DNA of 64,000 nt from Callorhinchus milii (Eukaryota): positions 43,712,001-43,776,000 of the forward strand of contig NW_024704742.1 of NCBI RefSeq assembly GCF_018977255.1, read 5' to 3'. Under the pieces are notes generated by a model. The model did not search any database and was not told the origin of the DNA. It saw nothing but the letters and a program-made list of their open reading frames with translations. The position numbers and the translations under genes were made by a program. Of this stretch, positions 9,795 to 58,809 are shown piece after piece; position 1 is the first letter of the stretch; every line of letters begins with the position of its first letter.

Positions 9795-10125
9795 TTACAA
9801 TGACACCACTCCATCAGTTGGGGCAGCTGTTTCATCCGTCCCAATTCTCAGAACATCGTGGACACTTCCTGATAACTCACATACACCAGCATCTTCAGAT
9901 TTTTCCAATGTTTTGGTTCCAGTTTCACTTCTTAGATTTCCTCGCTCTTTCCTCAAACTCTTAAGGCACTTATCCAGTTTTTTAATAAAGAGGTCCACGT
10001 CCTGTTTTTTCATTCCGACAGCCGATGCAGCATTCAGATAAGGGCACGGATAGTCATTAGCATGTGACATGAAGCCCTGGAATGTGTACCCATTTACAGT
10101 CTGTTTTGAGCCAAGAGGAACAACT
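9795..10125 (-). CDS. SEPSECS: SEPSECS coding exon 11 (last, with stop)
   Basis: ttcag acceptor; (R)[55 protein letters not shown]...GVVSL*; matches the human SepSecS C-terminal region. Confidence 0.96.
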
Positions 10126-10667: not shown

Positions 10668-10758
10668 CTGGCTCCAGATACCAGTCTGGTGAAAAGCATT
10701 GATCCAAGCTGAGTAACCGACTCATCACCATATTGATGGAATCTTTTCAGGGACATTG
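10668..10758 (-). CDS. SEPSECS: SEPSECS coding exon 10 (91 nt)
   Basis: AG/GT flanks; (A)MSLKRFHQYGDESVTQLGSMLFTRLVSGA(R). Confidence 0.96.
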
Positions 10759-16427: not shown

Positions 16428-16697
16428 CCACACGCCTCTGTTTACCGAGCAGTAAGTAGGAACCCGGTTGTTAGTCGATTGGCAGATCACTTTCCGGGGT
16501 TAATAATCCGTTCAAAATAAAGAAATAATAATTTGGTCACCCAATCCACAACTGTTTGTGGACGCTGCTGTGTGAAATTGGCTGCCGTGTTTCACCCACA
16601 AAATATATAGTCAATTCACTTTACAGTATATTCTGGAAAGCGCTTTGAGACGTCTCAACAATATAAGGTGCTGTATCAAATGCAAGGATTATTATTT
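16428..16697 (+). mobile_element. Deu-SINE, 5'-truncated, insert-bearing subfamily
   Basis: gtaagtaggaacccggttgttagtcgattggc insert, Deu core, ATT tail. Confidence 0.8.
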
Positions 16698-17087
16698 TGG
16701 TGCTCTTGGTTGTGCGTGCAGCACCCAACAATAGGATGGCAAAACAATGAAACATGAGGTCATGATGAATGTTAAGCAATGGGGAGTGCCCCACTGATAT
16801 ATTGCTTGTTTAGCTCACAAGTAGTGCAGAGACAGCACTGTTGGAAACTAATGGAAGATGTATTTTAAGAGCGTAACTATACTAAAACACCAATTCCTGT
16901 ACTACAGTGACCTCTAGTGTGAAAAGCTTGCCTAACCATGCTAGTCCTCCGCTACCCCAATTACCCTCATTAATATTTGTAGCATTACCCAGCTCAAGGA
17001 ATATTCACTGTATAACCCCTTGGTCCTCTCTTCTCCCCAAAACACATGTGAGTGTGAATATCAAATATTAAAAAGAATACTAGTTAC

Positions 17088-17181
17088 CTAAAGATATAGG
17101 GTTATGTGACGTCTCCAGAAGTCTTTCTCCATAAGCTTCAGACAACCTCTTCATCTCATTTGAAAGGTAAGTGTACATTTC
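17088..17181 (-). CDS. SEPSECS: SEPSECS coding exon 9 (94 nt)
   Basis: AG/GT flanks; [31 protein letters not shown]. Confidence 0.96.
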
Positions 17182-23066: not shown

Positions 23067-23380
23067 ATAAATAATAATCCTTGCATTTGATATAGCGCCT
23101 CATCAAGTTGTCGAGATGTCTCAAGGCATCTCACAGAACATACTGTAAAATGATTTGACTGTATATTTGATGGGCGAAACACAGAAGCCAATTGCGCACA
23201 GCAATGTTCCACAAACAGGGACCAAATTATTATTAATTTTAAGGGATTATTATCCACAGAAATGTGATCCCTAATCAACCAACAATCGGGTAGCTACTTA
23301 CTGCTCAGTAAACAGGCGTGTGGAGTAAGGAAATTTGCATTAGGCATCACCCTGGCCAGGAATAAAATCTGGGTCCTCGA
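23067..23380 (-). mobile_element. Deu-SINE, insert-bearing subfamily
   Basis: Reverse complement of tail, Deu core and gtggagtaaggaaatttgc. Confidence 0.8.
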
Positions 23381-23735: not shown

Positions 23736-23827
23736 CTTTCTTTCTTTTAGAAGTTTCTTATAACCGTTCACACCCAGCGACAGCAATGTAATCAGAATAT
23801 CCATTGAGGGTGATGCTGAAGCTCTGC
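23736..23827 (-). CDS. SEPSECS: SEPSECS coding exon 8 (92 nt)
   Basis: AG/GT flanks; (G)[30 protein letters not shown]. Confidence 0.97.
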
Positions 23828-25541: not shown

Positions 25542-25676
<135 letters not shown>

Positions 25677-29648: not shown

Positions 29649-29834
<186 letters not shown>

Positions 29835-30758: not shown

Positions 30759-30912
30759 CTGTCAGGGACCCTGGGGGCAAAGCAAGAGGTAGTGGAATGT
30801 ACACAAAGGATGTTGTCTGCCCCGAGCTCTTGAATCTTGGCTTCCACAGTCTGCAGATCTGTGCGCAATTCGTCTCCTTCCAGCAGATTCTCAATCACTA
30901 TAGGTTCAAACC
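30759..30912 (-). CDS. SEPSECS: SEPSECS coding exon 5 (154 nt)
   Basis: AG/GT flanks; (G)[50 protein letters not shown](R). Confidence 0.97.
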
Positions 30913-31945: not shown

Positions 31946-32104
31946 CTGCAGTGATCATGGATTTGAAGCATGACTTCTGATCAATTCTTGGCCAAATGAT
32001 AAACTTGGCTTTCGGTCTTCTCGGCCTCAATGCAAGAAAACAAAGTGTCAGGCTCATGCCTGTTGCCATTGGTACAACAAAGCAGCTGGAAAGAGTTCGA
32101 ACAC
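31946..32104 (-). CDS. SEPSECS: SEPSECS coding exon 4 (159 nt)
   Basis: AG/GT flanks; (G)[52 protein letters not shown]. Confidence 0.97.
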
Positions 32105-34156
32105 CTGGCAATATAAGCAGTTCAATGAATGTTAGCAAGTTCTGCAATACTGCTCACCAACAAAGTGAACCTAAAGTTGGAACCAACTTCTAATGTGAAA
32201 GATAACAGCTCATAAGAGCTCAGGCTGAGATCAGCTTACTCAGTGCAGATTTGGGATCAAACTTGTCTCTATTACATGAGCTACCAACAAAAGAAGAAAA
32301 ATAACCAAAATGAGAGCTCTAGGAATTTAAACTGTGTATATTATCTAGTACATCGCAAATCAACCTACATTTCAAGGACGAAAGGCACTTTTTGTGAGTT
32401 TAGAAAATGCTTTCTTACAGCACAAGCTGTGCTCTTGTGTTTATCGTGTCACTTGAATGCTTTGATGGGTTACTGCTGTGTGACTCTCAGCAGCCTATTT
32501 AATACCCTATTATAAAAATGTATGAAATATTTTTTGATGAGCCTAAATAATTCGGCAGTGCTGCAACAGAGCTGCGCATTGCATCAGTGACTATACACAA
32601 TTAATGACATTGCTGGAAGGAAATTGGTCAGGTATGAATAATGGAGGAGTAAATGGCAGATATTGTAGATATTGTGGAGTACTGAGTTTCCGGGAGACAA
32701 GGAGAAATATTGCAGATCTTTCCTCAAATGATTAAATAACTGGGGTAGAGATCATGTTAGCTCCAATAACCAAAATGACTTGCTTTTATTCAATGCTGTA
32801 TGCTTTCATGTTCTAAACAGTACATTTATGAGCTTTTATTAACTAATACTTGGCTACCTCGCTTGCCTACAAAATACACAGTCACTACACTTTAGAATAT
32901 ATACTGTGAAGCGCTTTGAGAAGTCTCGACATGTGATAAGGCTCTATATCAAATTCAAGGATTATTATTATTTATTAAAGCTAGTTTAGAAAATCATTAA
33001 TTTGAATCCAAATTAATAAAATCACCTACTATTTGGTTCTTGAATTCTGTGCAGTATTGATGATATTTTAATGAAAACGCAGATGAGCAAGGCTGAATAT
33101 TTTTTGTGAAAAATTTTGAGCTAGTTTCTGTGCATCTCAGTTACATCTATTTGATAAAAAAGTACAGCTCCATTAATCTTAATGAGGTGCAATCTGTCTC
33201 ATTGTAAAAACTATTCATTTCAATGGGTTTGCAATCTGTTTCAGTTTATCCACATACACACAAAACATTTTCACTGCAATTTTCCAAATGTGGTAAGTTA
33301 TTGCTGAAGTACACTTGTAAACAATATTACTAAACTCATATTACAGAACATAAAAAGGAAGCAAATGTCTATTTTTGAACTGAGTTAATTTTTATTTTGT
33401 AAAAAATATTTTTTGCAGTGACAAACAGCCCCATCCGTTTCACTGGCACTCATTAATAATTTACGAAGAAACCATAAATCATAGCGTTTATAACTTCACC
33501 ATTATACAATTCCCCCAGGGACCACAAGGTCTGAGACTGGCTCAGAAATTCTTTTTTGTAATGCTATGGGGAGGATTGGTGGTCACAGAAGTAATAACAG
33601 CTGTCAAAATGTTCTCCAGCATTATTTTAAAATTAATGAAGAGTGAGTCTGAACTGAGATCAATATGATTTGAACACCTGAATTATTATTCCTTTCCCTC
33701 CACCTCCCTTTCTTTCCTTCTTAGATACTGAAAATAACATAACATTCCACAATTGAGAGGGCCACACTCCTCTGCCAATTGCATCTGTTTCAAAAGAACA
33801 GAAGCAACATGAGTTTGACTTGCCCCATTTTATACCTCCCAAGACAGAGTTTGGAAATGCATTGTGTTAGAAATAGTAGGAAGAAACAAATCCACCTTCT
33901 GACATTCTTTGGTTGTACGAGGTGAGATAGGATAAAAACCAAGTCATGTCAACCTTTTAAACTTTATTTCCTACCTTCTAGGGTCACCTTCAGTTATCAA
34001 ACTATAGTATCATCCAAACTGCAAAAGTCAACCCAAGCCACCAATCGGCATAATACCTGACATAAGACGTGATTTAACAACCTTGGCATTGCAAACCTAT
34101 AATGAACAATTGCAGTGGGATTCCAGTTGTCTATTAACAACTTATCAGGTGAGACA

Positions 34157-34512: not shown

Positions 34513-34631
34513 CTGCCACTCTAAGAATGTCCAGCACTATCGAATTTGTGAGTTTGTTCATGAGGCTGGATCCTGCTGCTTTGGGTTGAATAGCAGCAAC
34601 GTCTCCTGATCGCCCGATCCCATGCATAAAT
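34513..34631 (-). CDS. SEPSECS: SEPSECS coding exon 3 (119 nt)
   Basis: AG/GT flanks; (R)[39 protein letters not shown]; includes the phosphate-binding GRSG..QPK segment. Confidence 0.97.
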
Positions 34632-36038: not shown

Positions 36039-37045
36039 CAACAACAACAACAAGATTCCATTTATAAAGCGCCTTTCACGTCAGGAGGACGTCCCAAGGC
36101 GCTGCACAGTTGGGTCATGACCCGAGCAGGGGGGAAATGGTCAGGGTGAGGGGAGGGAAGGGAGGGAGAGAGGAGGGGGGAAATGGTCAGGGTGAGGGGA
36201 GGGAGGGAGCGAGAAGGGGGAAGAGAGTCGAGGGGAGCTGAAGGCTCGGTCAAAGAGAAAGGTTTTGAGACCGGCCTTGAAGGAGGAAAGGGAGGAAGCG
36301 GCGAAGGCACTGGGGGATAGAGTTCCAGAGCCTCGGGGCTGAGAGGCTGAAGGCCCGACCACCGATGGTAGGGCGGTTGGGGCGGGGGATGTGGAGCAGA
36401 CCGGAGCCGGAGGAACGGAGGGTACGGGCAGGTAGGTAGGGTGATAGTAGGTTGGAGAGGTAGGAGGGGGCAAGGCCGTGAATGGCCTTGTAGGTGAGGA
36501 TGAGGATCTTGAAATCAATCCTCTGGGGGATGGGGAGCCAGTGGAGGTGAGCGAGGGTGGGAGTGATGTGGTCCCGAAGCCTGGTGCGGGACAGTACACG
36601 AGCTGCAGAGTTCTGAATGACCTGCAGCTTGTGGAGGGAGGTGCCGGGAAGGCCGGCGAGGAGAGAGTTTCCATAGTCCAGCCTTGAGGTGACGAAGGCG
36701 TGAACCAGGGTTTCAGCAGCGTGAGGGGTGAGGTAATGCCGTAGTCTGGCGATGTTCCGGAGGTGATGGAAGGCGGTGCCAGTTGTGGTGCGGATGTGAG
36801 GGAGAAAGGACAGCTCAGGGTCGAACAAAACGTTCCTGACTGGCTTTGAGAGGTGGAGAGTGCAGCCTTGGATGCTGATGGTGTCGGCGCCTGAGGTGCG
36901 GAGGCGCTAACGCGAACCAATCAGGAGGGCCTCGGTTTTTCGCACGTTGAGCTGAAGAAAATTGTCTCTCGTCCAGGACTCGATGTCGGACAGGCAGGCT
37001 GTCAGGACATCGGTGGTCGTGGAGTTGAGAGTAGAGGAGGAAAGG
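36039..37045 (-). mobile_element. Young 5'-truncated L2 LINE (about 1 kb)
   Basis: ORF 36250..36828 FDPELSFLPHI...HAFVTSRLDYGNSLLAGLP...LHWLPIPQRIDFKILILTYKA; NFLQLNVRKTEALLIG; CpG-rich; tail gggacgtcctcctgacgtgaaaggcgctttataaatggaatc(ttg)n. Confidence 0.96.
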
Positions 37046-37775: not shown

Positions 37776-38168
37776 TGTCATTGCAAGAATATGAGATAAT
37801 ACTCAGGAGATCAGTCAAGAATAATCTAATTGTTTGGATGTTTTAGCTTGCCTTTAAGCCTAGCCATTTATTTCACTGGCCAAAAATTCATTGCGGCTTT
37901 CATATATAACTTACTATATTCGCATTGAGTGAGGAATGTACCATATGTGGCATTAACAAAATATTTAATGGAAATCGATTTTGATTAAGAACACATTCCC
38001 AACTCAAATAGAACCTAGTGTAGCCACAGTAACACACAATTCAAATCTGATAATAAGCAATGCAAGGTGAGGTTTTCTTTGGCAACATGGAGCTGATATG
38101 GCAAGTGCTCTATTGGGGTGCCTCAGATGGGAACACACAAAGCAAACAGAGAGAATATCTGACTGTAC

Positions 38169-38323
38169 CTGTAGTGCCTTTGAGCAACTAAGTTTGAAGC
38201 CACTCTTCCTTCCCTCTCCCCAACTCCACAATTACCAAGAAAGTTGTTACTATCCATAATAGCCAGCTCATGTAGAAACAGTTCAATGGTACTCTCTTCC
38301 CATCCATCTTCTGGGCATTTACC
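38169..38323 (-). CDS. SEPSECS: SEPSECS coding exon 2 (155 nt)
   Basis: ttttctag acceptor, GT donor; [51 protein letters not shown](R); requires phase 0 entry. Confidence 0.97.
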
Positions 38324-39851
38324 CTAGAAAAAAATGGAATAAGATAGAATTCTGAACATTTGTTTTGAAAAAAATGTCATAAAGACATATATTGGACCTT
38401 CAGTGGGATATGGATCATTTAACAGAATAGTGGTTTGGCATGACAGTAACTGGGATTTATAACTCAACTCTTAGCCCCTGACACACAGATTCCTTGTATG
38501 TATTCTGATGATGTTTCTTTCCAGCAGGCTGAAGGCTCTATGCAGTTCAACTAAAATTTATGCATCCTAGAATCTACAGTGACAAAATACAAAATGGAAG
38601 TTACAAGTCAAACCCCAGAAAGAAAATCTTCACTGCTTACTAACATTTTCATTCTATTCCCTTTAATCATTTATTTTTTGAAAATCTCAATTTCCTATCC
38701 TGCAATAAGGAATAAGGGAAACAAATAGCGAGGGAAAAAAATGGAAAATATTTTGTAACTGTCTCCTTGGTAGCTGAGAAATTTAGTTCCTACAGCAAAT
38801 TCCCAGGTAGGTCAATTGGTTGAGCACTTGTCTTCGGATCAGAATTCAAAGCCCATTGGGTCCACTCAGCCCTAAGCTGTGCAACAGGAACACAAAACCT
38901 CCACTAGAGTAAAATGCATTCACTGTAGATGTTATACATATGCTGAAATCACAATGTATTACAAAGTTATAAGGATTCATTGCACAGGGCAAAGCCATTA
39001 CAATATGCTCGTATGGATCCAATCTCTTAGGCCCTCACATTATAAGAGAGTGCAAAAAAATGGCTCAGGAAGTAACATAAGTAGAGCTTCTTGCGCATGG
39101 ACTCAGGAAGCAACATCAGTCACATATGCGAGTGTACACTTCCAATTTTCTAAGTTCTGAGCCGGTGTGCCTGGGCTGTCAACAGCAGAGCCCGAGCAGG
39201 ACCGCACACTCACCTGGCTCAGGAACGGACTTCAGAGACCGCCACAGAGTGTTGGCTCGATTCTGACTTACCCTAGCCAGTTCAGCTCGAGGGAGACTCC
39301 ACTTACCACCCCCCCAAAGGAGGATTTTTTAAATCCTTTGGAACAACTTTCTAAATTTTCAATCTAGAATTAGAAATTACAGTGTTTGTAAGGATACAAA
39401 TGAAAGGAAAAGGTCAATTTTGCAGCTGCCAGTAAAGCTTTGAATGAATACAATTATGGAGCTATAGAATTGAATTCTGAGAGAAAATTTCACTTCCTTG
39501 GCAAATATCCACACTTTTTTTTGCTAATTACTTTGAAATACAGTAGAAACTTGTTGAGACAATGTATTATTGGGGTTTTTTAGTTGATGTGAATCATAAG
39601 TGAGATGAAATAACTAGAAAGGGTCTATTATCAGTAAGATACTTTGTCCCTGTTTACGTAAATTTTGTCTACTCACTACTGCAGGTTCTCACTAACCCAG
39701 ACTCAGAACATCTTAACTCTTAGGAGAACCACAAAAGCAGGAATTTGGTGTCAAATCAGGTGGATGTTAAACATCCCGTGGCAGTATTCAAAAAGAGAAG
39801 ACCAACAATCCAATTAAATTAATCATTCACTATATGGCTGTTTGTAATATA

Positions 39852-40147
39852 AATAATAATCCTTGCATTTGATATAGCGCTTTTCACGTCTTCTCGACAT
39901 CTCAAAGCGCTTCACAGAATATGCTGTAAAGTGAACTGACTTCATATTTGTGAGCAGCCAATTGCGCACAGCAGTGTCCCACAAACAGTTGTGGATTGAA
40001 AATGACCAATTTATTATTGTTTTGTTTTGGAGAGATTATTATTACGTGTATGGAGTAAGGGAACTTGCCCAAGGTTTCGCCCTGCCTGGAATTGAACCCA
40101 GGTGCTCGCTTGCAAGGCGAGTGCTCTAACCACTGAGCTACAGGACT
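39852..40147 (-). mobile_element. Near full-length young Deu-SINE
   Basis: Reverse complement of the 13214 family with an intact tRNA-like head. Confidence 0.92.
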
Positions 40148-41519
40148 AAACTAGAACATTACCATGTGCAAATTGGCTACCAAATTTGTCTACAACTACA
40201 CTACAATTTACAGTAAATCCTGTGAATTGCTTTGAAAGATTTCAACAACATGATAAGGCACTACTGTATATATCAAATGCAAGGATTATTGTTATAATAA
40301 TAAATCTTAAGAGGCTCTAAAACAAATAATCCTGTTTCAATAATAAACCATCATACTCATGAGTTACTGCACCTTGCACAATAGTGTTTACTGGCAACAT
40401 TTTAATAAAGGCATCACAAACACTGGATGCCTGTGGGAGCACAGTGAAGTGGGCATGCCAAGCACTGCTTGGCAACATTTTTAAAAACAGCTCCACAACA
40501 TACAATAGAAACAGCTTGTGTATGAAAGGAAAAGAATTCAAGAGGATTTTAGTGCATACTTTGCAGTTATCAGTACATAACAAACAAAAACTCTCAGAGG
40601 GAGCTTCGTAATTGCAAGAGTACACAGCTCTGTAAGAATCTGCATTACCACAACAAGCTAAAAGTGGGAACAACAGAGAGGCTGTGTGAAAGAGAGAGAG
40701 GTCTGCAACGCATAACTGATAATTGTTCACATAAACAATTCAGCAACTCAAAATTAAATAACACAAGCACGAACCAATATGGTCACTGCCATAAAATAAT
40801 ACACTGAATATTAAGTTTCCATACACTGCAAATCTGTAGCCACCAGTCTCAGAGAACATTAAAATCTAATTTATGGCAGCTGCCCATCCTGTACCCTCCT
40901 TTTTTTCCCCCAGAATTCCGATATTTTGTTTGTAATAATTGATTTAGATTGTGGAGTCCAGATGTATGAAAATGTCGAGTACTGTATTACATTAAAGTAG
41001 TTGTCTTGGGTTTAACAGTGCTTTGAAACGTTTGTTTCACTATGACGGATTGAATCAGACAATCAGTCATACTTTCTCCTGAGCTGAGGTAATTTAGACA
41101 AGCGTTACCAGTCACCATTATTTCATTGTGGAGTCAACAATATTGAGTCACAGATGGCAGGATGTCCCAGTTGCATCTAACTTTTATTGCTTAGTACATC
41201 CCATCACTTGTAATTTATTAGTTACATAAATGAAGGAAGAGAATTTGTCCTGCCTATTTCTATCCAGCAAGAGAGGCAGTTGATCTGTATGAGGTATGCT
41301 GGTTAAATACAGTGAAAATCACATCCCGGAATTAGCAGTAAGATAAAATACAAAACCTCAGGATAGAAATTAGCCTGGAGCCTAGTACATGGAGCACTAT
41401 TTCTAAGTTTGCTGATCAAACAAAAATCAGTGAAATGTTGGAATCGAGTCATTTGTTTGTGACGGTCTTGCCACGCGAGTTCCTGAGCCAGGCAGGTCCT
41501 CAGTACTCCAAGATGTAAA

Positions 41520-42040
41520 CAGATTAGCAAATCGGACAGATGAAATTGAAGGCAGGAAAGTGTGAGGTTATACATTTTGGGAGGAAGAGTTGGGAGAGCA
41601 ATTATATGCTAAACTGTAGCTCGGTGGTTAGAGCACTCGCCTTGTAAGCGAGACACCTGGGTTCAATTCCAGGCAGAGGGCGAAACCTTGGGCAAGTTTC
41701 CTTACTCCACACAGAGCCTAATAATAATCCCTCCAAAACAAAGCAATAATAAATTGGTCATTTTCAATCCACGATGTTTGTGGGACACTGCTGTGCGCAA
41801 TTGGCTGCCGCATTTCGCCCACAAATATACAGTCAATTCAGTTTACAGTCTATTCTGTGAAGCGCTTTGAGACGTCGAGAAGACGTGAAAAGCGCTATGT
41901 CAAATGCAAGGATTTTTATTTAAAAAAGGATTAGAAAATCAGAGAGTCCCAGTGTTTAAGATACAAGAATTAAATTCAAGGTGAGAAGCAGGTGGCAAAG
42001 CTGTGAAGGAACCTAATGGAATACCAGAGTACATTCCTAC
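41520..42040 (+). mobile_element. CR1 LINE RT relic interrupted by a SINE
   Basis: QMKLKAGKCEVIHFGRKS motif upstream of the SINE; CR1-like sequence resumes after about 41920. Confidence 0.7.
41614..41918 (+). mobile_element. Near full-length young Deu-SINE
   Basis: tRNA-like head, Deu core, tail. Confidence 0.92.
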
Positions 42041-42504
42041 AGTATAAAAAAAATCTCCAAGTACAGCACATAGGAAGGGTTAGTTACAATTTGATGAACA
42101 TTCCTTTAAGAGGATGTTAATTAGATGTGCAAGGAATTACAACAACAAATTGCATTCATATCATGCCCTTCAAGCAGGTTAACATCTCAGAATGTTTCAC
42201 AGACATGATCAGGCTTTTAGCAAGGGAGGAGGGGATAGATGCCCCAGGCAAGGTCAAAGAGCTATGTTTTAAGGTGGGATTTAAAGACAGATAGAAAAAG
42301 CTTGAGACAGAGAGGGGAAGCGTGAGCAAACCGGATTAAGAGCATATCAAGCATTAGCATTAGCTAAGGATATGGCTAACTTGAATTAACACTACAAAAA
42401 CTACTTTTTTTTAGATTCTGCCCATGTACAAATAGAGAAAGAAATTGAGACAAAAATGACAACACAGGTCTGTACTGGCTGAAGCACTAATTTGCAATTC
42501 TTAC

Positions 42505-42617
42505 CTTTTCTATAAGCAGGCGAATCAAGACTCATGTGTGCGTCGTGCCTGTGAACCCTGTTGAATATATGAAGAGGAAACAATGTGCTCACTTAAGGAA
42601 AAGTTTTCAGTGTTCAT
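42505..42617 (-). CDS. SEPSECS: SEPSECS coding exon 1 (113 nt as given; apparent 1-nt deletion)
   Basis: MNTENFSLSEHIVSSSYIQQGSQARRTHE(S)* then LIRLLIEK in the -1 frame, ending AAG|gtaag; aligns with human MNRESF...ARRSHEHLIRLLLEK; a repaired CDS would be 1542 nt / 513 aa. Confidence 0.92.
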
Positions 42618-42859
42618 TCTTGCTGCTGTGAAGACAAAAAATACCAGCGATGCATGAATAAAAATCAACTAATGCTGCATTGAGTTTGATTCAGATTGAT
42701 ATCGCCTACAAATATATGGTCACTACATTTTACAGTAAATCCTGAGAATCACTATGAGATGACGTTGAACAATGTGATAAGATGCTATGTCAAATGCAAG
42801 GATTAGTATTATTTTATCAGTTTCACAACTGATCAGGCAGACTTGTCATACATATTTTT

Positions 42860-43150
42860 CAACAACAACTTGCCTTTATATAGGGTAGCATTTCCGAGCA
42901 AAGCAAATGTATTTTGAAATAGCGCCTTTTACATCGGGAAGATGTCCCAAAGTACTTAATGATATTTGATGAGCATCCGAGCTGGGGCGAAAATATGGGA
43001 AGGGGAAAGAAAATGGAAAGCATAGCAAAAAGGTAAGTCTGGAGGTGGATCTTGAACAAGGTAAGAGAGTGATTTGGAGGGATTCTGGGGTGGGAATGAA
43101 GGTAGAAAGGTGAATCCCGCAAGCCAGTGCTCGGTGAGGAAGGGACCGCT
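42860..43150 (-). mobile_element. L2 3' relic
   Basis: FKIHLQTYLF-like ORF2 end and two L2-type tails. Confidence 0.65.
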
Positions 43151-44751
43151 TTTCAGTGGACATTTGTTTAAAAAATAAATTGTAATTTTACAACATCTTA
43201 TTATCTTGTAAATATGGCGGATGTTTATGCCAACAAGCCTCACAAGTAGCTAGAAGGAGAAGCCAATTGGTCATTTAATCTAGCCAGGACAACTGATGAA
43301 ACTCCCTCCTCTTTTGAGAAATAGTACTTAGGGATCTTTAAGTTCTGCCAGAAAATAACCATAAATAAAGATTGTCAATAGGTGAATTACGGACATGTAC
43401 TATACAGAAATATATACATCAGACAGCCCATCATTTATTAATCTGTTTATATTACAAGAGGGGAAGTTTTGAGACAGAATGACAACTATAACAACAACAA
43501 TCAATAAAAGAGAATGAAAGAAGTGTTTGCAAGAACAGAGAAGGTGCAAGTAAGAGAATGTTCACTTATCAAAAGTGAAACTTTTGTTTATGCTGTCTGG
43601 GAAAGCAAGAGAGGTCGCCACAGATAAGCTTCCCTAGACAAGGGAGCAACATTCAAAGCTTGAACAACTTTAGGCTTTATGGAGAGAAGAGTTATTCAGA
43701 ATATGTTTGGCACATAGACGAAACTGAGCGTCCTGAGAGTGCTTTAGCAACAGAGGTGATGTGAGCATTCCACCTAAGGTCAAAGGAGATAGATGATGAA
43801 AGATTAAGAGGGGAGCATCAAAGATAAGTGTCACATTATCGGTTGGTTCTTGTGAGAGAAATGAAGAAACAATATAAGAGGAACTGAAATGAACAAGATT
43901 ATAGTTGCCCGTCAAAGGACTTGAAGAAGATCAAGGTTTAGGTTCAGCCTTTGCACCAAGAGGAATAAAGGTCATAAGCCCTCAGGCTACGCGATCTGAA
44001 GAAAATTGAAGAAAGTAAAATGAAACCGTTAGCAAAAGATACAATGGGTAGAGCGGCTGGCGAGAGGAAAGAATGAATTCATGGATACTAAATATTAAAA
44101 TGGCATCATGATTCTATAAAGTTATTCTAACTTCCATTTTTGAATATATATCTACATATTTTACTGTCAGGTAAGCATCAAACTAGGTGTTACAGGTTCT
44201 GCAAGTCCTGTTGATCAAAAAGATTCACTGAAATCAAACTGGTAAGGCATCATTTTTTAACTCGTATTTGACCTTTGCCTAATGTTCTTTGAGGCGAAGC
44301 TTCATTGGTTGGGAAGCACTACTGTTTTGGTTTTGTCCTGACTCCGCACTTGGGGGCACCCACCACCTTGTCCTACAGTGTTCACGGTGGGGAGTGCAGC
44401 GCAAAAGGTCCCCAGATGAGTCCACAAACTGCATAAAAATATCTTAACCTCAGATGTTTGAGGATGTACTAAGGTTTCTTACGACCAATATGATTTCTAT
44501 AATTCTTTGTGTGGGCATGAGTGGGAAATTGTGACTTGGGATACATGGATTTATTGGAGGAGCAAACAGCAGACACAAATACTATGGAGCTGAACGGTCA
44601 TCTCCTGTGGGTAGATTTCTATGGGAGTAAAGGGTTGGCAGCTGGAGTTGGCTGAATGGCCAGCCTTGGACCCCTACACACATCAGGCTATCATTGTCAA
44701 GTGAATGCGAATTTATTGAGCATTAGCCCACCCCCTGCAGATACAGCCTCC

Positions 44752-44955
44752 TGCACCAGACCATGAGACGCACACACACACTCTCTCCAGCACCAGATTA
44801 TGAGACACACACACACACTCTCTCCAGCACCAGATCATGACTCACACGCACACTCTCTCTCTCTCTCCAGCACCAGATTATGACAGACACTCTCTCTCCA
44901 GCACCGGATGATACACACACACTCTCTCTCTCTCTCTCTCTCTCCAGCACCAGGT
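44752..44955 (+). repeat. Compound minisatellite, about 6 units of ctccagcaccagat.atga + (CA)n(CT)n
   Basis: Read directly. Confidence 0.9.
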
Positions 44956-45389
44956 CACTAGTGAGTCCTTTATACCTATAACCAGTCATTCTCCTTCCCT
45001 CTCACACGAGCACAAACCAGCCTAAGGACAGCACTGATGGTACCGCCTTGTATAGGGAGTATTTGCATTTTACTGAGAGCTTCACACACCCACAGTCACC
45101 AGCTCTTCCAGTGCTGAGCCCGACACCAACCTCACCTCGGAGATGAAGAGCGAGAGGCTGCAGCCAGGGTCTAAAGTCAAAGGAATCAGGCTGGGAGTTT
45201 CATTGGATTTATTGTAAAAAGATGTGGTTACCACTTAAGTGTTCAGTTTGCAAAGCTCCGCCAGGCACAGGCTTTCCGCTTCCAGTGCAGTTCTGAACTA
45301 TAACCTCTCCCCAAAGTCTACAGACTCTCAGTGTAGCAGTTCAGCCTCAGCAGCACTGCCTCCCTCCCTCCTGCTGCATTCATTCCCTC

Positions 45390-45690
45390 TGCATTGGGGG
45401 GGGGGGGGAGGAGGATAATTGAAGGCACAATCGAAGAGGAGGGCCTTGAGATGGGTGTTGAAGGAGGCGAGGGAGGGGGCGAGGCGGAGGGACTGTGGGA
45501 TGGAGTTCCAGAGCATGGGGGCAGAGTGGCAGAAAGCCCACCCGCCAATGGTGGGGCAGGAGAGCCGGGGGAAGTGAATCAGGCTGCCGCCCACTGAGCA
45601 GAGGGAGCGAGCACGATGGGTAGGAGGTTACGAGGTTGCAGAGGTAGGGGGGAGCAAGGCCATGGAGGGGGCTTTGAAGGTGAGGAAAGC
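45390..45690 (-). mobile_element. L2 LINE 3' fragment
   Basis: TIGGWAFCHSAPMLWNSIPQSLRLAPSLASFNTHLKALLF. Confidence 0.88.
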
Positions 45691-46564
45691 AAGAGATTGG
45701 AGAAAATCAATACACTGGATAAAAGGCTGCTCGTATACAAGCATGGTACATTTCAACGAAAATGCAAACACTGTACCTGTACAAAATGCATTTAGGAAGG
45801 GACTGATATTCATGTTTACATCATGAGATTTTCTGTTGATATGTTTTAAATGGTGGTGGTGATGAATAGTAACTATTTTAATCTGCTTCTATTTTACTGT
45901 GCAAAAATATTGAATATGAATATGTATGAGGGGTCAAGGTGGACTCTACCCCCACCCCTCGAAAAAAAAGCTTTGAAGGAGCTCTCTTGTAATTTGGGAG
46001 TGAGACAAGTCAAGCCGATTTTGTTGTGATGTTTTTCTAATGATTTTAGAATTGTTTGGATAAAGAAAAGAAAATATTTTACACTTTTAGAAATCTTGGC
46101 CATGATCCTTTTGTCTAGGAAGAGGCTGAAGTAAGCGTTCAATTAAATTATTAAGAATGACTTCTCTTGGTTGGATCCTAAGACAATCTGGTAGGAAGAG
46201 CTTTCACACACTTCAACTGACTACAGACCTTTGGCTTGGTTCTTGAGCGTGTATTCCATTTCCAGACACAGGAAACTTTCAATATGTAGGTGGCATATGT
46301 ATGTGGGTCTGTCAATCTGGTTTGGATACTCTTAAGCAAGATGATAGTGACAGACTGCATAAAATGCTGTTTATCTACAAGCATGGTACATTTAAACTAA
46401 AATGCAAATACTGTACAAAATGCATTTAGGAAAGGACTGATATTTATGTTTTTGCATCATGAGCTAGACATTCTTGCTTCAGAACAACATCTTCAAGAAA
46501 TAAGACAGCCTGCAAAAAATAAAACAGGCAAAGTCGGGTAAAGAAGAGTACAGCCATATGCCTC

Positions 46565-47000
46565 TAAAAGTGGAAGTGCAAGTGGATAAAATGATAAAAT
46601 CCCGAAATAGAATTCTGGATTTACATTTAGGAGCACAGAACACAAGAGAAATTAATTTATGTTAATTATGTACAATACGCTGGCTTGACCTCATTTGGCG
46701 TATTAAGTTTAGTTTTGGACACCTCATTGTGGATAGGACAATAGGACATCATTGTCATTGAGAGAGTATTAAACTGGAGATTCTGGAAATGGGAGATTTT
46801 TTAGAAGATGTTTTGTTGCACACATAGATATTTGTAAGAATGTGGAATGCCTTACCACAAACTTTATAACAGCATTTGAAAGGGAATTGGATAAATAGTA
46901 ACTTAGAAAAAAAAAGTTATGGGGAAAAGAGCAAAGTACATCCAGGAAAGGAGCTTGAACCAGCAGATCAGGCCAAATGGCTTCCTCTTGTGCCCGTCTT
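46565..47000 (+). mobile_element. CR1 LINE relic (RT C-terminal part and 3' UTR)
   Basis: MLIMYNTLA*PHLAY*V*FWTPH and RMWNALPQ motifs. Confidence 0.65.
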
Positions 47001-47003
47001 CCA

Positions 47004-47430
47004 TTGCAGAAGCTTGCAACAGATCAATTTGAATCTAGAAGGTGTAGTTATTTATTTGATGTAAATTACTTTTTGAGATATGTGAATGTCACCAAGTTGT
47101 CATCTGATTTAATTGAATATCTGAAATCCATCTTCGCTCAACATGGCGTTCCAGAACAAGTCACATCAGATAATGGACCACAATCTTCAGTGGCCTGCTC
47201 TTCCCAGTTTACAAATGACTATTGATTTATCCACATCACAAGCAGTTCAGGATACATGCAAAGAAATGTAAATGAAGGCTGTGTAATACAGACAGGGAAA
47301 CATTTGTTGAACGAAGTATGCAATTCCTAATTTGCTCTTAAATCATATTAGAGTTTGTCCATAAAAAAATAATGAATAGCACAGAATAAGTTCTTATAAA
47401 TAGGAACCTGAGAACAACTTTCCAGTCTAC
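47004..47430 (+). mobile_element. Ty3/Gypsy integrase (rve) relic
   Basis: QKLATDQFE...YLFDVNYFLRY...LKSIFAQHGVPEQVTSDNGPQ...Y*FIHITSS matches the integrase core pattern (HGxP..SDNGPQ). Confidence 0.85.
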
Positions 47431-47879
47431 GTGCACAAACTAAACTTTGAGTGGTCACATTTTGAAGCAGTTAAAGGAAGACAGAAGAATTAAAGCAGAA
47501 CAATCCTGTATAATTTTCAACTCGATACATTTCAATAAGGTAATCACATCTTACTCAAAACTACATAGTATACTACATAGTATACAGAGCGCCTTGGGAC
47601 GTCCTCCCGACGTGAAAGGCGCTCAATAAATGGAATCTTGTTGTTGTTGTTGTATAAGAACATTATAGTTAAAAGAGTAAATACAACATGCTCCTTGCAG
47701 GTTAATTTTTTTATTTCTATAAATATGGTTTCTCTTCAAATGTTGATAATGGTCTCAGCCTCAATAATCACTTGTAACAAAGCACTCCATACTTCAAGCC
47801 ATATTCGTTCTGGTCCAGTAAGAGATTAGTTACACACTGTTAATTGCTCCAGATGGGATTTTATTTCATTTAAAAACAC

Positions 47880-49190
47880 AGTAATTACAGCACAGAAGGA
47901 GGCCATTTCTCGAATAAATAAATTCTCATACTTATGAACCTACACTGCATCCTTCCCATGGTTTTCATATTCTTTCAGTAATGAAGTGCCCAGAACTGCA
48001 CAAGTACTCCATCTGTGGCCTAACCCAATGTCTTACATAAATTCTTGTTTCATTAACCCTATATATAAACCTAGAATTCTTTGTACTTGTTCCCACCTTT
48101 AAAGGTCTGGATAATTGCACCCTTAGACCTCTCCTGAAAATCATTAAGAATGTTAGCATTTAGGGTACACTTTATTTTTTCTCCAATTGTTCTACATCAC
48201 ATTTCTCAACATTGCACTGCATCTGCCAACTTAGCTGTTCACAATGGTAAATCAAATTGGAAGGAATAAGTCAATCATTCTCCAGGTTCTCCATGTTGAT
48301 CTCTCCGTTCCCTCTGCTCAGCAGGCTCCTGCCTGCTCCACGTCCCCCACCTGGCCCGCCCCACCAACATTGGTTGATACCCTTATGGTATCTTCAGTTT
48401 CTCTGTCCCCACTCTTTGGATCTCTATCCCAGTCCCTTTGCCTTGCTCTCTCCCTCACCTCCTTCAATGCTCATCTCAAGACCCTCCTCTTCGACTGCAC
48501 CTTCGGTCACCCTCCTACTCCTGCCCTCCACCCCTCCTGATCCCAACCCCCTGCTCGGGTCCGAATCTCTGACTGTCCAGCACCTTGGGCTGTTGTCACA
48601 ATGTGGAGGCGCTAAACAAATGTAATGTGTTGTTGTTTCTTGCATTTGTCATCACTGTTTGCTTCCCCATAATTTAGTTAATCAACAGAAATATTTTCTT
48701 CTAATTGCCTTTTAACATAGATGAAAATTAATAGTGGTCCTGGCACAGATCCCTCAAATTTACTACGGATTACTGTATCCCATGCACAGCTAATATCCAT
48801 CGCCTTAATTTACCAAAGTGCCTCACATTTTTTCAACAAGGATCTTATATGGTATCTTGTATATATGGCATCCATGTATATACTGCATTCCCTTTATTAA
48901 TAACACACAGCTTTCCTCAGATAATACAATCAAATTAGTCAAGTATTACTTCTCTTTTTTCATATCCATGCTGACTCTCTTGGATCAATCCCAGTTTTTA
49001 TTAGAATTTAACAATCTAACCTATATACAGTCTCTAGACATTCATCTACAACTGAGGTAGGATCAATTGGCCATTTCCCAGCTTATCCTCTTCCCTCCTT
49101 TTGAACATTTGCCACACTCCAATCCTTTGGCTTGATCCGTGTTTCCAAAGGTTCTTCTGAACATTGTGGCTAATTCACTGTCTGTCTAAT
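47880..49190 (-). mobile_element. CR1 relic(s) interrupted by a plus-strand L2 tail (about 48300-48640)
   Basis: VRPQMEYLCSSG-like motif and acagcacagaaggaggccatt 3' end; the L2 piece reads SLTSFNAHLKTLLF. Confidence 0.55.
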
Positions 49191-49206
49191 CCTCGATCTT
49201 CAATGT

Positions 49207-49391
49207 TATAATAATAATAATCCTTGCATTTGATATAGCGCTTTTCACGTCAGGAGGATGTCCCAAAGCGCTTCACAGAACACACTCTAAAGTGGATTGA
49301 CAGTATATTTGTGGGCGAACACGGCAGCCAATTGCGCACAGCAATGTCCCACAAACAGTCGTAGATTGAAAATGATCAATTTATTATTGTT
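49207..49391 (-). mobile_element. 3' half of a young Deu-SINE
   Basis: Near-identical inverted copy of 49660-49850. Confidence 0.9.
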
Positions 49392-49524
49392 ATGAGATAC
49401 CCACTGGTAACTATCATTAGTGGTAACTCTATCACTATGACATAGCAGAGCACCAATAACAGTACCATTGTACCACAGAGCACTGGTAACAGTAATAAAA
49501 AAGAATAATCCTTACATTTATTCT

Positions 49525-49852
49525 GGAGTCCTGTAGCTCAGTGGTTGAGCACTCGCTTTGCAAGCGAGAGACTTGAGTTCAATTCCAGGCAGAGGGCGAA
49601 ACCTTGGGCAAGTTTCCTTACTCCACACGCCTAATAATAATCCCTCCAAAAAAACCAAAAACAATAATAAAATTGGTCATTTTCAACCCACGACTGTTTG
49701 TGGGACATTGCTGTGCGCAATTGGCTGCCGCGTTCGCCCACAAATATACTGTCAATCCACTTTAGAGTGTGTTCTGTGAAGCGCTTTGGGACGTCCTCCT
49801 GACGTGAAAAGCGCTATATCAAATGCAAGGATTATTATTATTATTATTATTA
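49525..49852 (+). mobile_element. Full-length young Deu-SINE nested in the tail of an older minus-strand SINE (49504-50118)
   Basis: Intact head; ttacattt occurs on both sides (likely target-site duplication). Confidence 0.92.
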
Positions 49853-50350
49853 CATTTGGTATAGCACCTTTCAGGTCGGGGGACATCCCAAAGCGCCCAG
49901 CAAGATTTTCTGTGAAGTGCAGTGACTGCGTATTTGTCGGAGAACGAGGCAACCCAATTGCGCGCAGCAATATCCCACAAATAGCCACGTCACACAAAAT
50001 GGCAAACTTTATTTTGGAGAATTGTTGGTGGTACAACAGTGGGAGAGAACTCCCCTTGACCTCTTGGGGTCTTTTGACATCCACCTCAACAGGTATCACA
50101 GGGCGTCTTTACGTCATCATAGAATACCAGCAACAGTACCGTTGTGACATCACAGAGCAGCCACAAACAGTTCCATTGTGACACCATTGTCACGATTAGC
50201 CTCGCAGGGATCCCTGGGAAATCCGCGGCGCAGGATGAACCGGCAGGTTCCCCCTGGTGGCTGATGCGCAGGCGCGTGCCTCGAGAGAGAGAGAGAGCGA
50301 GAGCTGCCGGGTTGGGAGGGGGGGCGTGGCCGGGGGCGGAGTTGCTAGGC

Positions 50351-50530
50351 GCCGGGGGCTGTGAGTGACAGCCTGGGGGGGGCGGGGCCGGGGGCTGTGA
50401 GTGACAGCCTGGGGGAGGGCGGGGCCGGGGGCTGTGAGTGACAGCCTGGGGGAGGGCGGGGCCGGGGGCTGTGAGTGACAGCCGGGGGGGGGCGGGGCCG
50501 GGGGCTGTGAGTGACAGCCGGGGGGGGGGG
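50351..50530 (+). repeat. Promoter tandem repeat, five units of 36-37 bp
   Basis: Unit gccgggggctgTGAGTGACAGcc(t)ggggg(a/g)gggcggg; decamer starts at 50362, 50398, 50435, 50472, 50508. Confidence 0.95.
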
Positions 50531-50571
50531 TTGGGGCAGAGCGCGGATGGAGGCGGCCTCGCGCTCGCTGA

Positions 50572-51099
<528 letters not shown>

Positions 51100-51690
51100 T
51101 AATATTATATACACAGTCACCAGTCTGGCGGAGAGGGTCGCACTCTCACCTCTGAGTCACTCACTCACTCACCCACTCGGCTGTGGGTCCAATGGTCGCC
51201 CTCAGGTCCTCTCCTCTCCCTGTGTGTGTGTGTGTATGGGGGTGGGGCGGGGGGGAGGGGCGATGTATCAATGCAAGTTGTTGTTGTTGTTGTTGTGGCT
51301 CAGGCCCCAGTCTGGACTTTGACCCCCCCGCCCTGGAGCTGCCCGGTGCACCGTCCGGGCGTCACGTCCACCGCCGCATGTGTTCGGACGTGGGTCCGGT
51401 CGGCCCGCGGAAGCCCCGCCGCCCTCGTCCTCAAGAGGGAATGGCGTTCACGCCCGTGTCCGGGCCGACGGTCCGGAAAGCCGGTCGTTCGCTTCGCGGC
51501 CGTTTGCGGAACGTGCCTCTGCGCCGATTCACTGCCCCGTTTCTCAGAACAATGCACAAGTCACTTTTAAGTGTTCCCCTGACGCGAATATCGCTATATC
51601 AAACATAAGGATTTTTTTTAAAATCCAAGGGTGCAATAGGTGGAGAGAAAGAGGATAAACTGGACATCTGAGATCTATTAAATTACTACT

Positions 51691-52001
51691 GGGAGTCCTG
51701 TAGCTCAGTGGTTAGAGCACTCGCCTCACAAGCGAGAGACCTGGGTTTGATTCCCACCAGGGTGAAACCTTGGGCAAGTTTCCTTACTCCACACGCCTGA
51801 TAATAATCCCTCAAGAAAAATAAAACAATAATAAATTGGTCACTTCAAACCACAACTGTTTGTGGGACACATCTGTGCGCAATTGGCTGCCGCGTTTCAT
51901 CCTCGAATATACAGTCAATTCACTTTACAGTCTTCTGTGAAGCGCTTTGAGACGTCGAGAAGACGTGAAATTGCGCTATATCAAATGCAAGGATTATTAT
52001 T
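51691..52001 (+). mobile_element. Full-length young Deu-SINE
   Basis: GGGAGTCCTGTAGCTCAGTGG head, Deu core, tail. Confidence 0.92.
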
Positions 52002-52349: not shown

Positions 52350-53620
52350 CTGTCAACCAGTCGCTCTCCTCAGGTTCTGTTCCTCTCCCCCTTAAAACCG
52401 CTGTCATCACTCCACTCCTCAAAAAAGACCCTCAAATTACTGACCCATTGCCAAAGCTCTGGAAGTCGAGCCCCAACAAGCTGGTTTCTGCCCTGGCCAC
52501 AGCACAGAACGGTCCTCTCTCTTTGACCAGGGCTACTTCTGCCTCCTCGTCCTTTTGAACCTCTCCGCCGTGTTAGACCACAATATACTTATCCACCGAC
52601 TCTCCTGCCTCATCAACCCCAGTGGGACAGCACTCGTCTGGTTTGAATCCTACCTAACAAACGCCTCCATTTTATCTCCTGAAACAGTTTCTCCTCCCGC
52701 CCCCACCATGTCACCTGTGGTGTACCCCAGGGCTCCATCCTTGGCCCCATCCTCTTCCTCATCTATATGCTCCCTCTTGGCGATGTCACACGCAAACATG
52801 GGATAAACTTTCATATAATAATAATCCTTGGATTTGATATAGCGCTTTTCACGCCTTCTAGATGTCTCAAAGTGCTTCACAGAATATACTGTAAAGTGAA
52901 TTGACTGTATTTTTTATGGGCAAAACATAGCAGCCAATTGTGCTCAGCAGTGTCCCACAAACAGTTGTGGATTGAAGGGACCAAATTATTATTTTTTTTC
53001 TTGAGGGATTATTATCAGGCTTATCATATGTATGCGGATGACACACAAATCTACTGCTCCTCCTCCGCTGTGATTCCAGGTTCGCCAATGTTCTCTCAGT
53101 TTATCTGGCAGATATCGGGGCCTGGATGAGCAAAAAGGTCCTACAACTAAATTTTGACAAGACGGAAACCGTACTCATTGGCTCCCGTTAACACCTTCTA
53201 TCCTGCGGCTCTGACCTTCTCAACCCCCCTGGCCTATCCCTCAGACTTTCCAAACCAGTGCACAACCTAGGTGTCAGGTTCGATCCACAGCTATGCTTCC
53301 TTACCCACATCCATTCCCTGACTACAACCATCTTCCTCTACCTCCGCCACATTGCCCGACACGATCTTGTCCTCCGTTCCACCATTATACCACTATGCCC
53401 CGAAACTCTGGAAGCCCCGAAACGTGCAGAAGGCCGGAGCCAGTCCTCTATCCCTCCATCTTGCCCCTTCCTTACCCATCTTCAGGTTGCGCCTGAAGAT
53501 CTTCCTATTCGACCGTGCCTTCAGTCACCTCCTTCCCCACCCGCTCGGCATTGTGCTCTGCCACTATCAAGCACACTGGGACGTTACCGTGCGTGAGGGG
53601 CGCTGTATAAATGCACTATT
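52350..53620 (+). mobile_element. Degenerate L2 LINE interrupted by a SINE
   Basis: [47 protein letters not shown]2 tail. Confidence 0.92.
52817..53023 (-). mobile_element. Truncated Deu-SINE inserted in L2
   Basis: Flanked by a tcatat direct repeat (52811-52816 and 53024-53029). Confidence 0.88.

Positions 53621-58488: not shown

Positions 58489-58809
<321 letters not shown>

What the first reader, a model, noticed from the sequence alone, without database searches (positions are those of the whole stretch)
42505..42540. SEPSECS exon 1 frameshift places UGA at codon 31 of the Sec-tRNA synthase
Seen: ATG(42617) to donor (42505) is 113 nt. It reads ...CAT GAG TCT TGA (42527-42525) with TAG five codons later, whereas TTG ATT CGC CTG CTT ATA GAA AAG (LIRLLIEK) is in the -1 frame, which phase-0 exon 2 requires. 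The -1 frame has its own TGA just upstream (ACA TGA GTC), so the missing base lies in a window of about 8 nt. The other ten exons are intact with human-like sizes, so the gene looks under selection. Known: SepSecS makes Sec-tRNA(Sec), the UGA decoder, and vertebrates depend on selenoproteins; the next in-frame Met (about residue 61) would drop the N-terminal helices; prfB (CUU-UGA) and antizyme (UCC-UGA) use autoregulatory shifts at UGA, but those are +1 and this site needs -1/+2. Inference: most likely a 1-nt assembly dropout (GG to G, or TTT to TT) or a heterozygous null; speculatively a UGA-pause recoding site sensing Sec-tRNA.
Basis: partly seen in the sequence, partly recalled or inferred. 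Interest (0 to 1): 0.75.

Follow-up and report, generated by a model that had tools for sequence, protein, structure and literature searches.

The report
One-base assembly dropout in SEPSECS
The apparent frameshift in the gene for the selenocysteine-tRNA synthase is a single base missing from this genome assembly, because independent DNA and RNA data and public protein records of the same species all show an intact gene.

Summary
The first coding exon of SEPSECS (minus strand, ATG 42617 to donor 42505) is 113 nt. The ATG frame stops at TGA 42527-42525, and LIRLLIEK continues in another frame.

The 113-nt form is not found outside this assembly. All 4 contigs that reach the site, from 2 runs of the same species in 2 studies, carry one more base. 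A genomic contig reads GAG TCT TTG. Three contigs of a second run read GAG TCC TTG. Two of these are spliced: one to exon 2, one to an upstream non-coding exon.

Both forms give a 114-nt open exon with Ser30. All 5 public Callorhinchus milii SEPSECS records examined read HESLIRLLIEK. One record (P0125, 513 aa) maps exactly on the window if base 42528 is read twice. All 12 full-length vertebrate proteins aligned have 38 ungapped codons here. The exon has no slippery heptamer.

Verdict: a 1-nt consensus dropout, TTT to TT, at a T/C variable third-codon position in an ordinary, expressed SEPSECS gene (~0.88). A private or heterozygous null allele stays possible (~0.10). Recoding is effectively refuted (~0.01). 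Interest is low.

The parts
42526..42529 (-). Site of the 1-nt deficit. The window reads GAG TC TTG. Independent data read GAG TCT TTG or GAG TCC TTG.
   Evidence: table 4: run X1 has 'A put in behind 42526' and run X5 has 'G put in behind 42528' (both on the + strand). Letters checked. In one search base 42528 is used by both codon 30 and codon 31 of P0125.
42525..42527 (-). TGA at codon 31 of the ATG frame. It exists only in the 113-nt form of the window.
42505..42625 (-). First coding exon of SEPSECS: acceptor cacag|CAGCAAGA, ATG at 42617, donor AAG|GTAAGA after 42505. It is 113 coding nt in the window and 114 in independent data.
51150..51172 (-). 3' end of a non-coding 5' exon of SEPSECS inside a CpG island (donor GTGAGA at 51149). 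Its 5' limit was not determined. The intron runs 51149-42626.
   Evidence: The 17 loose letters of X5 record 4 match only 51156-51172 on the minus strand. Sequence read. GC is 0.62 over 50001-52000.
38169..38323 (-). Coding exon 2 (residues 39-90). It is joined to 42505 in an RNA contig.
   Evidence: The 30-letter loose end of X5 record 2 equals window 38293-38322. Borders.
34513..34631 (-). Coding exon 3
31946..32104 (-). Coding exon 4
30759..30912 (-). Coding exon 5
29652..29754 (-). Coding exon 6
25547..25676 (-). Coding exon 7. It holds the SLDKNF stretch. That its Lys binds PLP is recalled, not tested.
   Evidence: Pfam SepSecS E 8.4e-17 on this exon alone.
23736..23827 (-). Coding exon 8
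17088..17181 (-). Coding exon 9
10668..10758 (-). Coding exon 10
9798..10125 (-). Coding exon 11 (residues 404-513). The stop codon follows.

Best explanation
This is an ordinary, expressed, single-copy SEPSECS gene of the elephant shark (Callorhinchus milii or a very near relative). It has eleven coding exons and at least one upstream non-coding exon. The enzyme is the PLP-dependent O-phosphoseryl-tRNA(Sec) selenium transferase, which makes Sec-tRNA(Sec). The frameshift is a fault of this assembly's consensus: one base is missing from codon 30. The true exon is 114 nt and reads ...CAT GAG TC(T/C) TTG ATT..., that is His-Glu-Ser-Leu-Ile. The lost base lies in a T run (TTT called as TT) and at a third-codon position that differs, T or C, between two data sets. 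Shown: the 114-nt form exists in genomic DNA and in spliced mRNA of the species. Inferred: the assembled individual also has it, and the consensus step lost the base.
For: 1. laid four runs, and two of them (X1, X5) reached the site. All 4 contigs that reach it have one extra base and none has the 113-nt form.
2. X1 is genomic. A single 532-nt contig covers 42350-42690, introns included, with 0 other differences. It has an extra A on the + strand behind 42526, which gives TCT TTG.
3. X5 comes from another study. Records 2 and 3 have an extra G behind 42528, which gives TCC TTG. Record 4 is clipped at 42529 and continues with letters that fit the same form.
4. X5 is spliced RNA. Its loose ends match exon 2 at 38293-38322 and an upstream exon at 51156-51172, and its depth is confined to the exon (table 2).
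5. All 5 public C. milii SEPSECS records examined read RRTHESLIRLLIEKGK.
6. P0125 (513 aa) is encoded exactly by the window, with base 42528 shared by codons 30 and 31 and GT-AG at the nine junctions the script resolved. The exon 1/2 border was read by eye and from the RNA contig.
7. All 12 full-length vertebrate proteins aligned have 38 ungapped residues from M1 to K38.
8. The exon-1 DNA occurs once in the 991.5-Mb assembly, so the spliced contigs do not come from a retrocopy.
9. P0125 matches Pfam SepSecS at E 1.5e-174 and human SepSecS 3hl2 at E 6.5e-267.
Against: - It is not known whether X1 or X5 comes from the individual that was assembled. The raw reads behind the assembly were not seen.
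- Logan contigs drop minor variants, so a heterozygous 113-nt allele could be hidden in either run.
- Only one genomic run was laid.
- I made no measurement of this assembly's general indel error rate.
Confidence: 0.88

Rival explanations
1. The deletion is a real private or heterozygous loss-of-function allele. The assembled animal carries a true 1-nt deletion in codon 30 on the haplotype that was assembled, and an intact 114-nt allele supplies the function.
For: - The window reads 113 nt.
- Contigs cannot show minor alleles (stated).
- The site is variable, T or C, between X1 and X5.
- No raw reads of the assembled individual were examined.
Against: - None of the 4 contigs from 2 studies shows the 113-nt form.
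- All 5 public protein records have the intact N-terminus.
- From general knowledge, a heterozygous frameshift in one named essential gene is much rarer than a one-base consensus error in a run of identical bases. This was not measured here.
Confidence: 0.1
2. The site is a programmed recoding site. The 113-nt form would be the normal gene, and ribosomes would shift -1/+2 at or before the UGA, perhaps sensing Sec-tRNA supply, to make full-length enzyme.
For: Only the coincidence that the out-of-frame stop is UGA in the gene that makes the UGA decoder.
Against: - Genomic and mRNA contigs of the species carry 114 nt.
- Public proteins read Ser30-Leu31 with no gap.
- The exon has no X XXY YYZ heptamer.
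- All 12 orthologues aligned have an uninterrupted frame.
- The prfB and antizyme shifts (recalled) are +1, not the direction needed here.
- A search for 'SEPSECS' with 'frameshifting' listed 5 papers. By title and start of abstract, none reports such a site (listing only).
Confidence: 0.01
3. The base is added at the RNA level. The genome would truly have 113 nt, and transcription slippage or editing would add a base.
For: The RNA contigs of X5 have one more base than the window.
Against: The X1 contig spans intron, exon and intron contiguously, so it is genomic or unspliced, and it already has the extra base. The added letter differs between the runs (T in X1, C in X5), as expected of an ordinary polymorphism.
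Confidence: 0.005
4. The gene is an early-stage pseudogene.
For: A frameshift at codon 30 in the window.
Against: - The other ten coding exons encode P0125 exactly, with canonical splice sites.
- The gene is single-copy.
- Spliced transcripts carry an open frame.
Confidence: 0.005

Closest known systems
Vertebrate SEPSECS / SepSecS (Pfam PF05889; human structure 3hl2)
   Same: P0125 is encoded exactly by the window apart from the missing base. It aligns end to end with human SepSecS (residues 1-496 against 1-492, E 6.5e-267) and covers the whole Pfam model (1-389 of 389). There are eleven coding exons and the first codes for 38 residues, as in the 12 vertebrate proteins aligned.
   Different: - Position 30 is Ser here, His in the three sharks and rays and in human, and Gln in coelacanth, gar, bichir and frog.
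- An extra non-coding 5' exon lies 8.5 kb upstream.
- The window's copy lacks one base.
One-base consensus errors in genome assemblies (undercalled runs of identical bases)
   Same: A single base is missing from a T run. Independent reads disagree with the assembly. The rest of the gene is intact.
   Different: The position is also a T/C difference between two data sets, so the loss may have come from merging two alleles and not from run length alone. That is inference. The sequencing method of the assembly is unknown to me.
Autoregulatory frameshift sites at UGA: bacterial prfB (RF2) and eukaryotic antizyme (recalled, not tested here)
   Same: A UGA in the zero frame early in a gene whose product relates to decoding that codon.
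   Different: Those shifts are +1, fixed in the species and conserved among relatives. Here the shift needed is -1/+2, the shifted form is absent from independent DNA and RNA of the species, and relatives have an open frame.

Membership tests
SepSecS (O-phosphoseryl-tRNA(Sec) selenium transferase, PF05889) | Full-length match to the family profile above the curated cut-off | tested here: met
   P0125, whose 513 residues the window encodes exactly, scores 580.7 bits against a cut-off of 21.1, over model positions 1-389 of 389. Exons 2 and 7, taken directly from the window, also match.
SepSecS (O-phosphoseryl-tRNA(Sec) selenium transferase, PF05889) | Orthology to the solved human and mouse enzymes | tested here: met
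   3hl2 at E 6.5e-267 and 3bc8 at E 3e-249. The 30 residues of the ATG frame align to human residues 1-29.
SepSecS (O-phosphoseryl-tRNA(Sec) selenium transferase, PF05889) | PLP-binding lysine (in the SLDKNF stretch; its role is recalled) | tested here: met
   SLDKNF is identical in the window's exon 7 and in human 3hl2. The catalytic role of the Lys is recalled, not tested.
SepSecS (O-phosphoseryl-tRNA(Sec) selenium transferase, PF05889) | Enzyme activity on Sep-tRNA(Sec) | not testable with these tools
   Needs biochemistry.
Programmed -1 ribosomal frameshift site | The two-frame arrangement is the normal state of the gene in the species | tested here: not met
   None of the 4 contigs from 2 runs shows it. 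All 5 public proteins are single-frame.
Programmed -1 ribosomal frameshift site | Slippery heptamer X XXY YYZ at the shift site | tested here: not met
   A scan of the 113-nt exon found none.
Programmed -1 ribosomal frameshift site | Stimulatory RNA structure downstream | not tested
   Not pursued after one search showed that the mRNA has an open frame.
Programmed -1 ribosomal frameshift site | Conservation of the shift in relatives | tested here: not met
   All 12 full-length vertebrate proteins aligned are ungapped over residues 1-38.
+1 frameshift at UGA (prfB / antizyme type) | The downstream frame is +1 relative to the start frame | tested here: not met
   Direct reading: the exon is one base short of 114, so the downstream frame is -1/+2.
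Assembly consensus indel | Independent sequence data of the same species disagree with the assembly at that base only | tested here: met
   The X1 contig has 0 other letters and 1 gap over 341 bases (table 8).
Assembly consensus indel | The assembly's own raw reads contradict its consensus | not testable with these tools

The most novel reading that the evidence does not exclude
The assembled elephant shark may really carry the 113-nt allele on one chromosome. It would then be a natural heterozygous null of SEPSECS that arose at a T/C polymorphic codon, living normally on one functional copy of the only Sec-tRNA synthase gene.
Probability: 0.1. Interest if true: 0.2.

Novelty: not a real feature. 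Interest (0 to 1): 0.05.

Why it matters
It matters mainly as quality control. Gene models built on this assembly will truncate SEPSECS, or need a patched codon, at 42526-42529. Scans that look for recoding near UGA should first check such sites against reads. The biology is ordinary: the elephant shark has an intact, expressed Sec-tRNA synthase like other vertebrates. A minor by-product is evidence that the gene's transcript starts at a non-coding exon in a CpG island that it shares, overlapping head to head, with a PI4K2B-like gene.

Tried and rejected
- **Relatives' reads.** Runs X12 (organism B) and X19 (organism C) were laid at 80% likeness and put nothing on 42350-42690. This says nothing about exon 1 in relatives.
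- **RNA runs.** No holder is on record as RNA ('no RNA holder listed'). X5 was only guessed to be RNA. Its spliced contigs show it.
- **Second copy.** I looked for another copy, a haplotig or a retrocopy of exon 1 in the window's own assembly and found only the window's locus.
- **Earlier notes of this scan.** There are none for this genome. A word search for 'SEPSECS frameshift' returned 8 notes on archaeal SepSecS loci, none relevant.
- **Odd 5' junction.** The X5 contig's 5' junction at 42631 first looked non-canonical. I read it as the expected GT-AG product (exon end TCAGAG joined to CAGCAAG), with the aligner running 6 letters into the look-alike intron end TCACAG. This fits that record's '1 other letter' but is inferred, because the contig's own letters there were not printed.
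- **Indel-rate control.** Checking the neighbouring PI4K2B-like gene against public proteins was considered and not run. It would cover too little coding sequence to be informative for the cost.
- One search failed on my wrong frame coordinates and was corrected.

Full report
**Observation**

On the minus strand the window carries a SEPSECS exon with ATG at 42617 and donor AAG|GTAAGA after 42505, which is 113 nt. The ATG frame gives MNTENFSLSEHIVSSSYIQQGSQARRTHES, then TGA (42527-42525), then TAG five codons later. The frame that exon 2 needs reads '*VLIRLLIEK', with its own TGA at 42534-42532. So one base is missing between 42532 and 42526. The 30 residues align to residues 1-29 of human SepSecS in five PDB sequences (E about 7e-5).

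**The gene**

A search with exon 5 (51 aa, longer proteins) gave 420 proteins at E <= 1e-10 among 438 candidates. The two 100%-identical hits are labelled Callorhinchus milii SEPSECS (P0001, P0002). Their clusters hold further C. milii records, among them P0125 (UniRef100_V9KPT6) and an XP_ record name.

P0125 (513 aa) maps on the window by exact 8-residue words over its whole length:
- Residues 1-30 lie at 42617-42528 and residues 31-38 at 42528-42505. Base 42528 serves two codons, which is the signature of a one-base deficit.
- Residues 39-513 lie in ten further exons: 38323-38169, 34631-34513, 32104-31946, 30912-30759, 29754-29652, 25676-25547, 23827-23736, 17181-17088, 10758-10668 and 10125-9798.
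- GT-AG borders were found at all nine junctions the script resolved. The exon 1/2 border was read by eye and is confirmed by an RNA contig.

P0125 matches Pfam SepSecS over the whole model (E 1.5e-174) and human SepSecS 3hl2 (E 6.5e-267). P0002 differs from the window at three residues of the last exon. P0125 carries the window's residues at those three positions. The window is therefore from C. milii or a very near relative. Its assembly has 991.5 Mb in 1762 contigs and holds exon 1 only once.

**The decisive test**

A run search with window 38050-42750 listed 24 runs. Of these, 20 hold the stretch or part of it, from 8 studies, and four hold at least half of the words (X1-X4, one study). 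The single read-laying run allowed put X1, X5, X12 and X19 on 42350-42690 at 80% likeness.

- **X1.** One 532-nt contig (depth 8.6) covers the whole stretch, both flanking introns included. It has 0 other letters and one gap: an A put in behind 42526 on the + strand. Checked against the + strand letters, this gives GAG TCT TTG ATT on the coding strand, so TT in the window is TTT in the contig.
- **X5** (another study). Records 2 and 3 carry a G put in behind 42528 (depth with it 65.4 of 65.4), which gives GAG TCC TTG ATT. Record 4 is clipped at 42529, and its 13 loose letters continue in the same form.
- **X12 and X19** (organisms B and C). These laid nothing.

So all 4 contigs that reach the site have 114 nt and none has the window's 113 nt. 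Both versions encode Ser30-Leu31 and an open frame.

**X5 is spliced RNA**

- The 30 loose letters of record 2 before 42504 match window 38293-38322 exactly and uniquely. That is the start of exon 2.
- The 17 loose letters of record 4 beyond 42631 match only 51156-51172 on the minus strand. There the sequence runs ...GTGACTCAGAG|GTGAGA.
- X5's depth is confined to 42504-42631 (table 2).

This shows a non-coding 5' exon ending at 51150 and an intron from 51149 to 42626. I read the one 'other letter' of record 4 as the aligner running six letters into the look-alike intron end. That is inference.

The exon-1 DNA has no second copy in the assembly, so a retrocopy does not explain the spliced contigs.

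**Comparison with relatives**

All 5 public C. milii records examined read RRTHESLIRLLIEKGK. All 12 full-length vertebrate proteins aligned have 38 ungapped residues from M1 to K38: 5 C. milii records, 3 sharks and rays, coelacanth, gar, bichir and Xenopus. Human agrees. Position 30 varies: Ser in C. milii, His in sharks, rays and human, Gln in the others. This fits a synonymous T/C difference at its third base.

**Mechanism and rivals**

The best reading is a consensus error of the assembly at a T run and variable site, in a normal, expressed gene (0.88). It is shown that the intact form exists in DNA and mRNA of the species. It is inferred that the assembled animal has it too.

- **Real heterozygous or private null allele (0.10).** It cannot be excluded, because contigs drop minor variants and the assembly's own reads were not seen.
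- **Programmed frameshifting (0.01).** It fails every feature tested. The shifted form is not the species' state. The exon has no X XXY YYZ heptamer. Relatives have an open frame. The direction needed is -1/+2, unlike prfB and antizyme (recalled).
- **RNA-level insertion.** It is contradicted by the genomic contig of X1.
- **Pseudogenisation.** It is contradicted by ten exact exons and spliced transcripts.

A literature search for 'SEPSECS' with 'frameshifting' listed 5 papers. Judged from titles and abstract starts only, none concerns frameshifting in this gene.

**Surroundings**

On the + strand a PI4K2B-like gene starts in the same CpG island (GC 0.62 over 50001-52000). An open frame from about 50581 reads ...[19 protein letters not shown] before a GTGAGT donor near 51021. 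A later exon at 58489-58809 matches Pfam PI3_PI4_kinase (E 1.5e-9). Naming the gene PI4K2B rests on that match plus recalled human synteny. The SEPSECS 5' exon (ending at 51150, minus strand) lies beyond that donor, so the two genes overlap head to head.

**Verdict**

This is not a real biological feature, and interest is low.

Noticed in passing
window 51150-51172 (minus) and 42626-51149: SEPSECS has a non-coding 5' exon in a CpG island, 8.5 kb upstream of the ATG exon. This is shown by an RNA contig of run X5. The exon's 5' end (the transcription start) was not determined.
   Followed up: partly
window about 50581-51021 (+) and 58489-58809 (+): A PI4K2B-like gene lies on the opposite strand. 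Its first coding exon lies inside SEPSECS intron 1, and the SEPSECS 5' exon lies inside its first intron, so the two genes overlap head to head at one CpG island. The gene name rests on a Pfam PI3_PI4_kinase match and recalled human synteny.
   Followed up: partly
window 42528/42529 (codon 30, third base): The genomic contig of X1 has T and the RNA contigs of X5 have C at the base that the window lacks. This is a synonymous Ser30 polymorphism at exactly the dropped position.
   Followed up: partly
window 9798-10125 (minus): Public C. milii records differ at three residues of the last exon (S/A, N/T, P/S between P0002 and P0125). The window agrees with P0125.
   Followed up: yes
window 17182-17256 (minus): The open frame just upstream of exon 9 ([25 protein letters not shown]) is the odd middle segment of public isoform P0001 (496 aa). 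That isoform lacks the end of exon 7 and all of exon 8, so it is an alternative or mis-predicted splice form.
   Followed up: no
window 36250-36906 (minus); 52683-52901 (+): Retrotransposon remains: a 218-aa open frame in intron 2 that looks LINE-like by eye (not searched), and a weak RVT_1 match (E 2e-4, below the Pfam cut-off) near 52.7 kb.
   Followed up: no
e.g. window 16576-16734, 22993-23130, 32843-32989, 39823-40035, 41728-41934, 42690-42806: A short interspersed repeat recurs in both orientations through the introns. It is visible as the repeated pseudo-peptide ...[13 protein letters not shown]...KCKDYY... in the ORF list. One copy begins about 70 nt upstream of the ATG exon.
   Followed up: no
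window 18258: The window holds a single N, inside intron 8 of SEPSECS.
   Followed up: no
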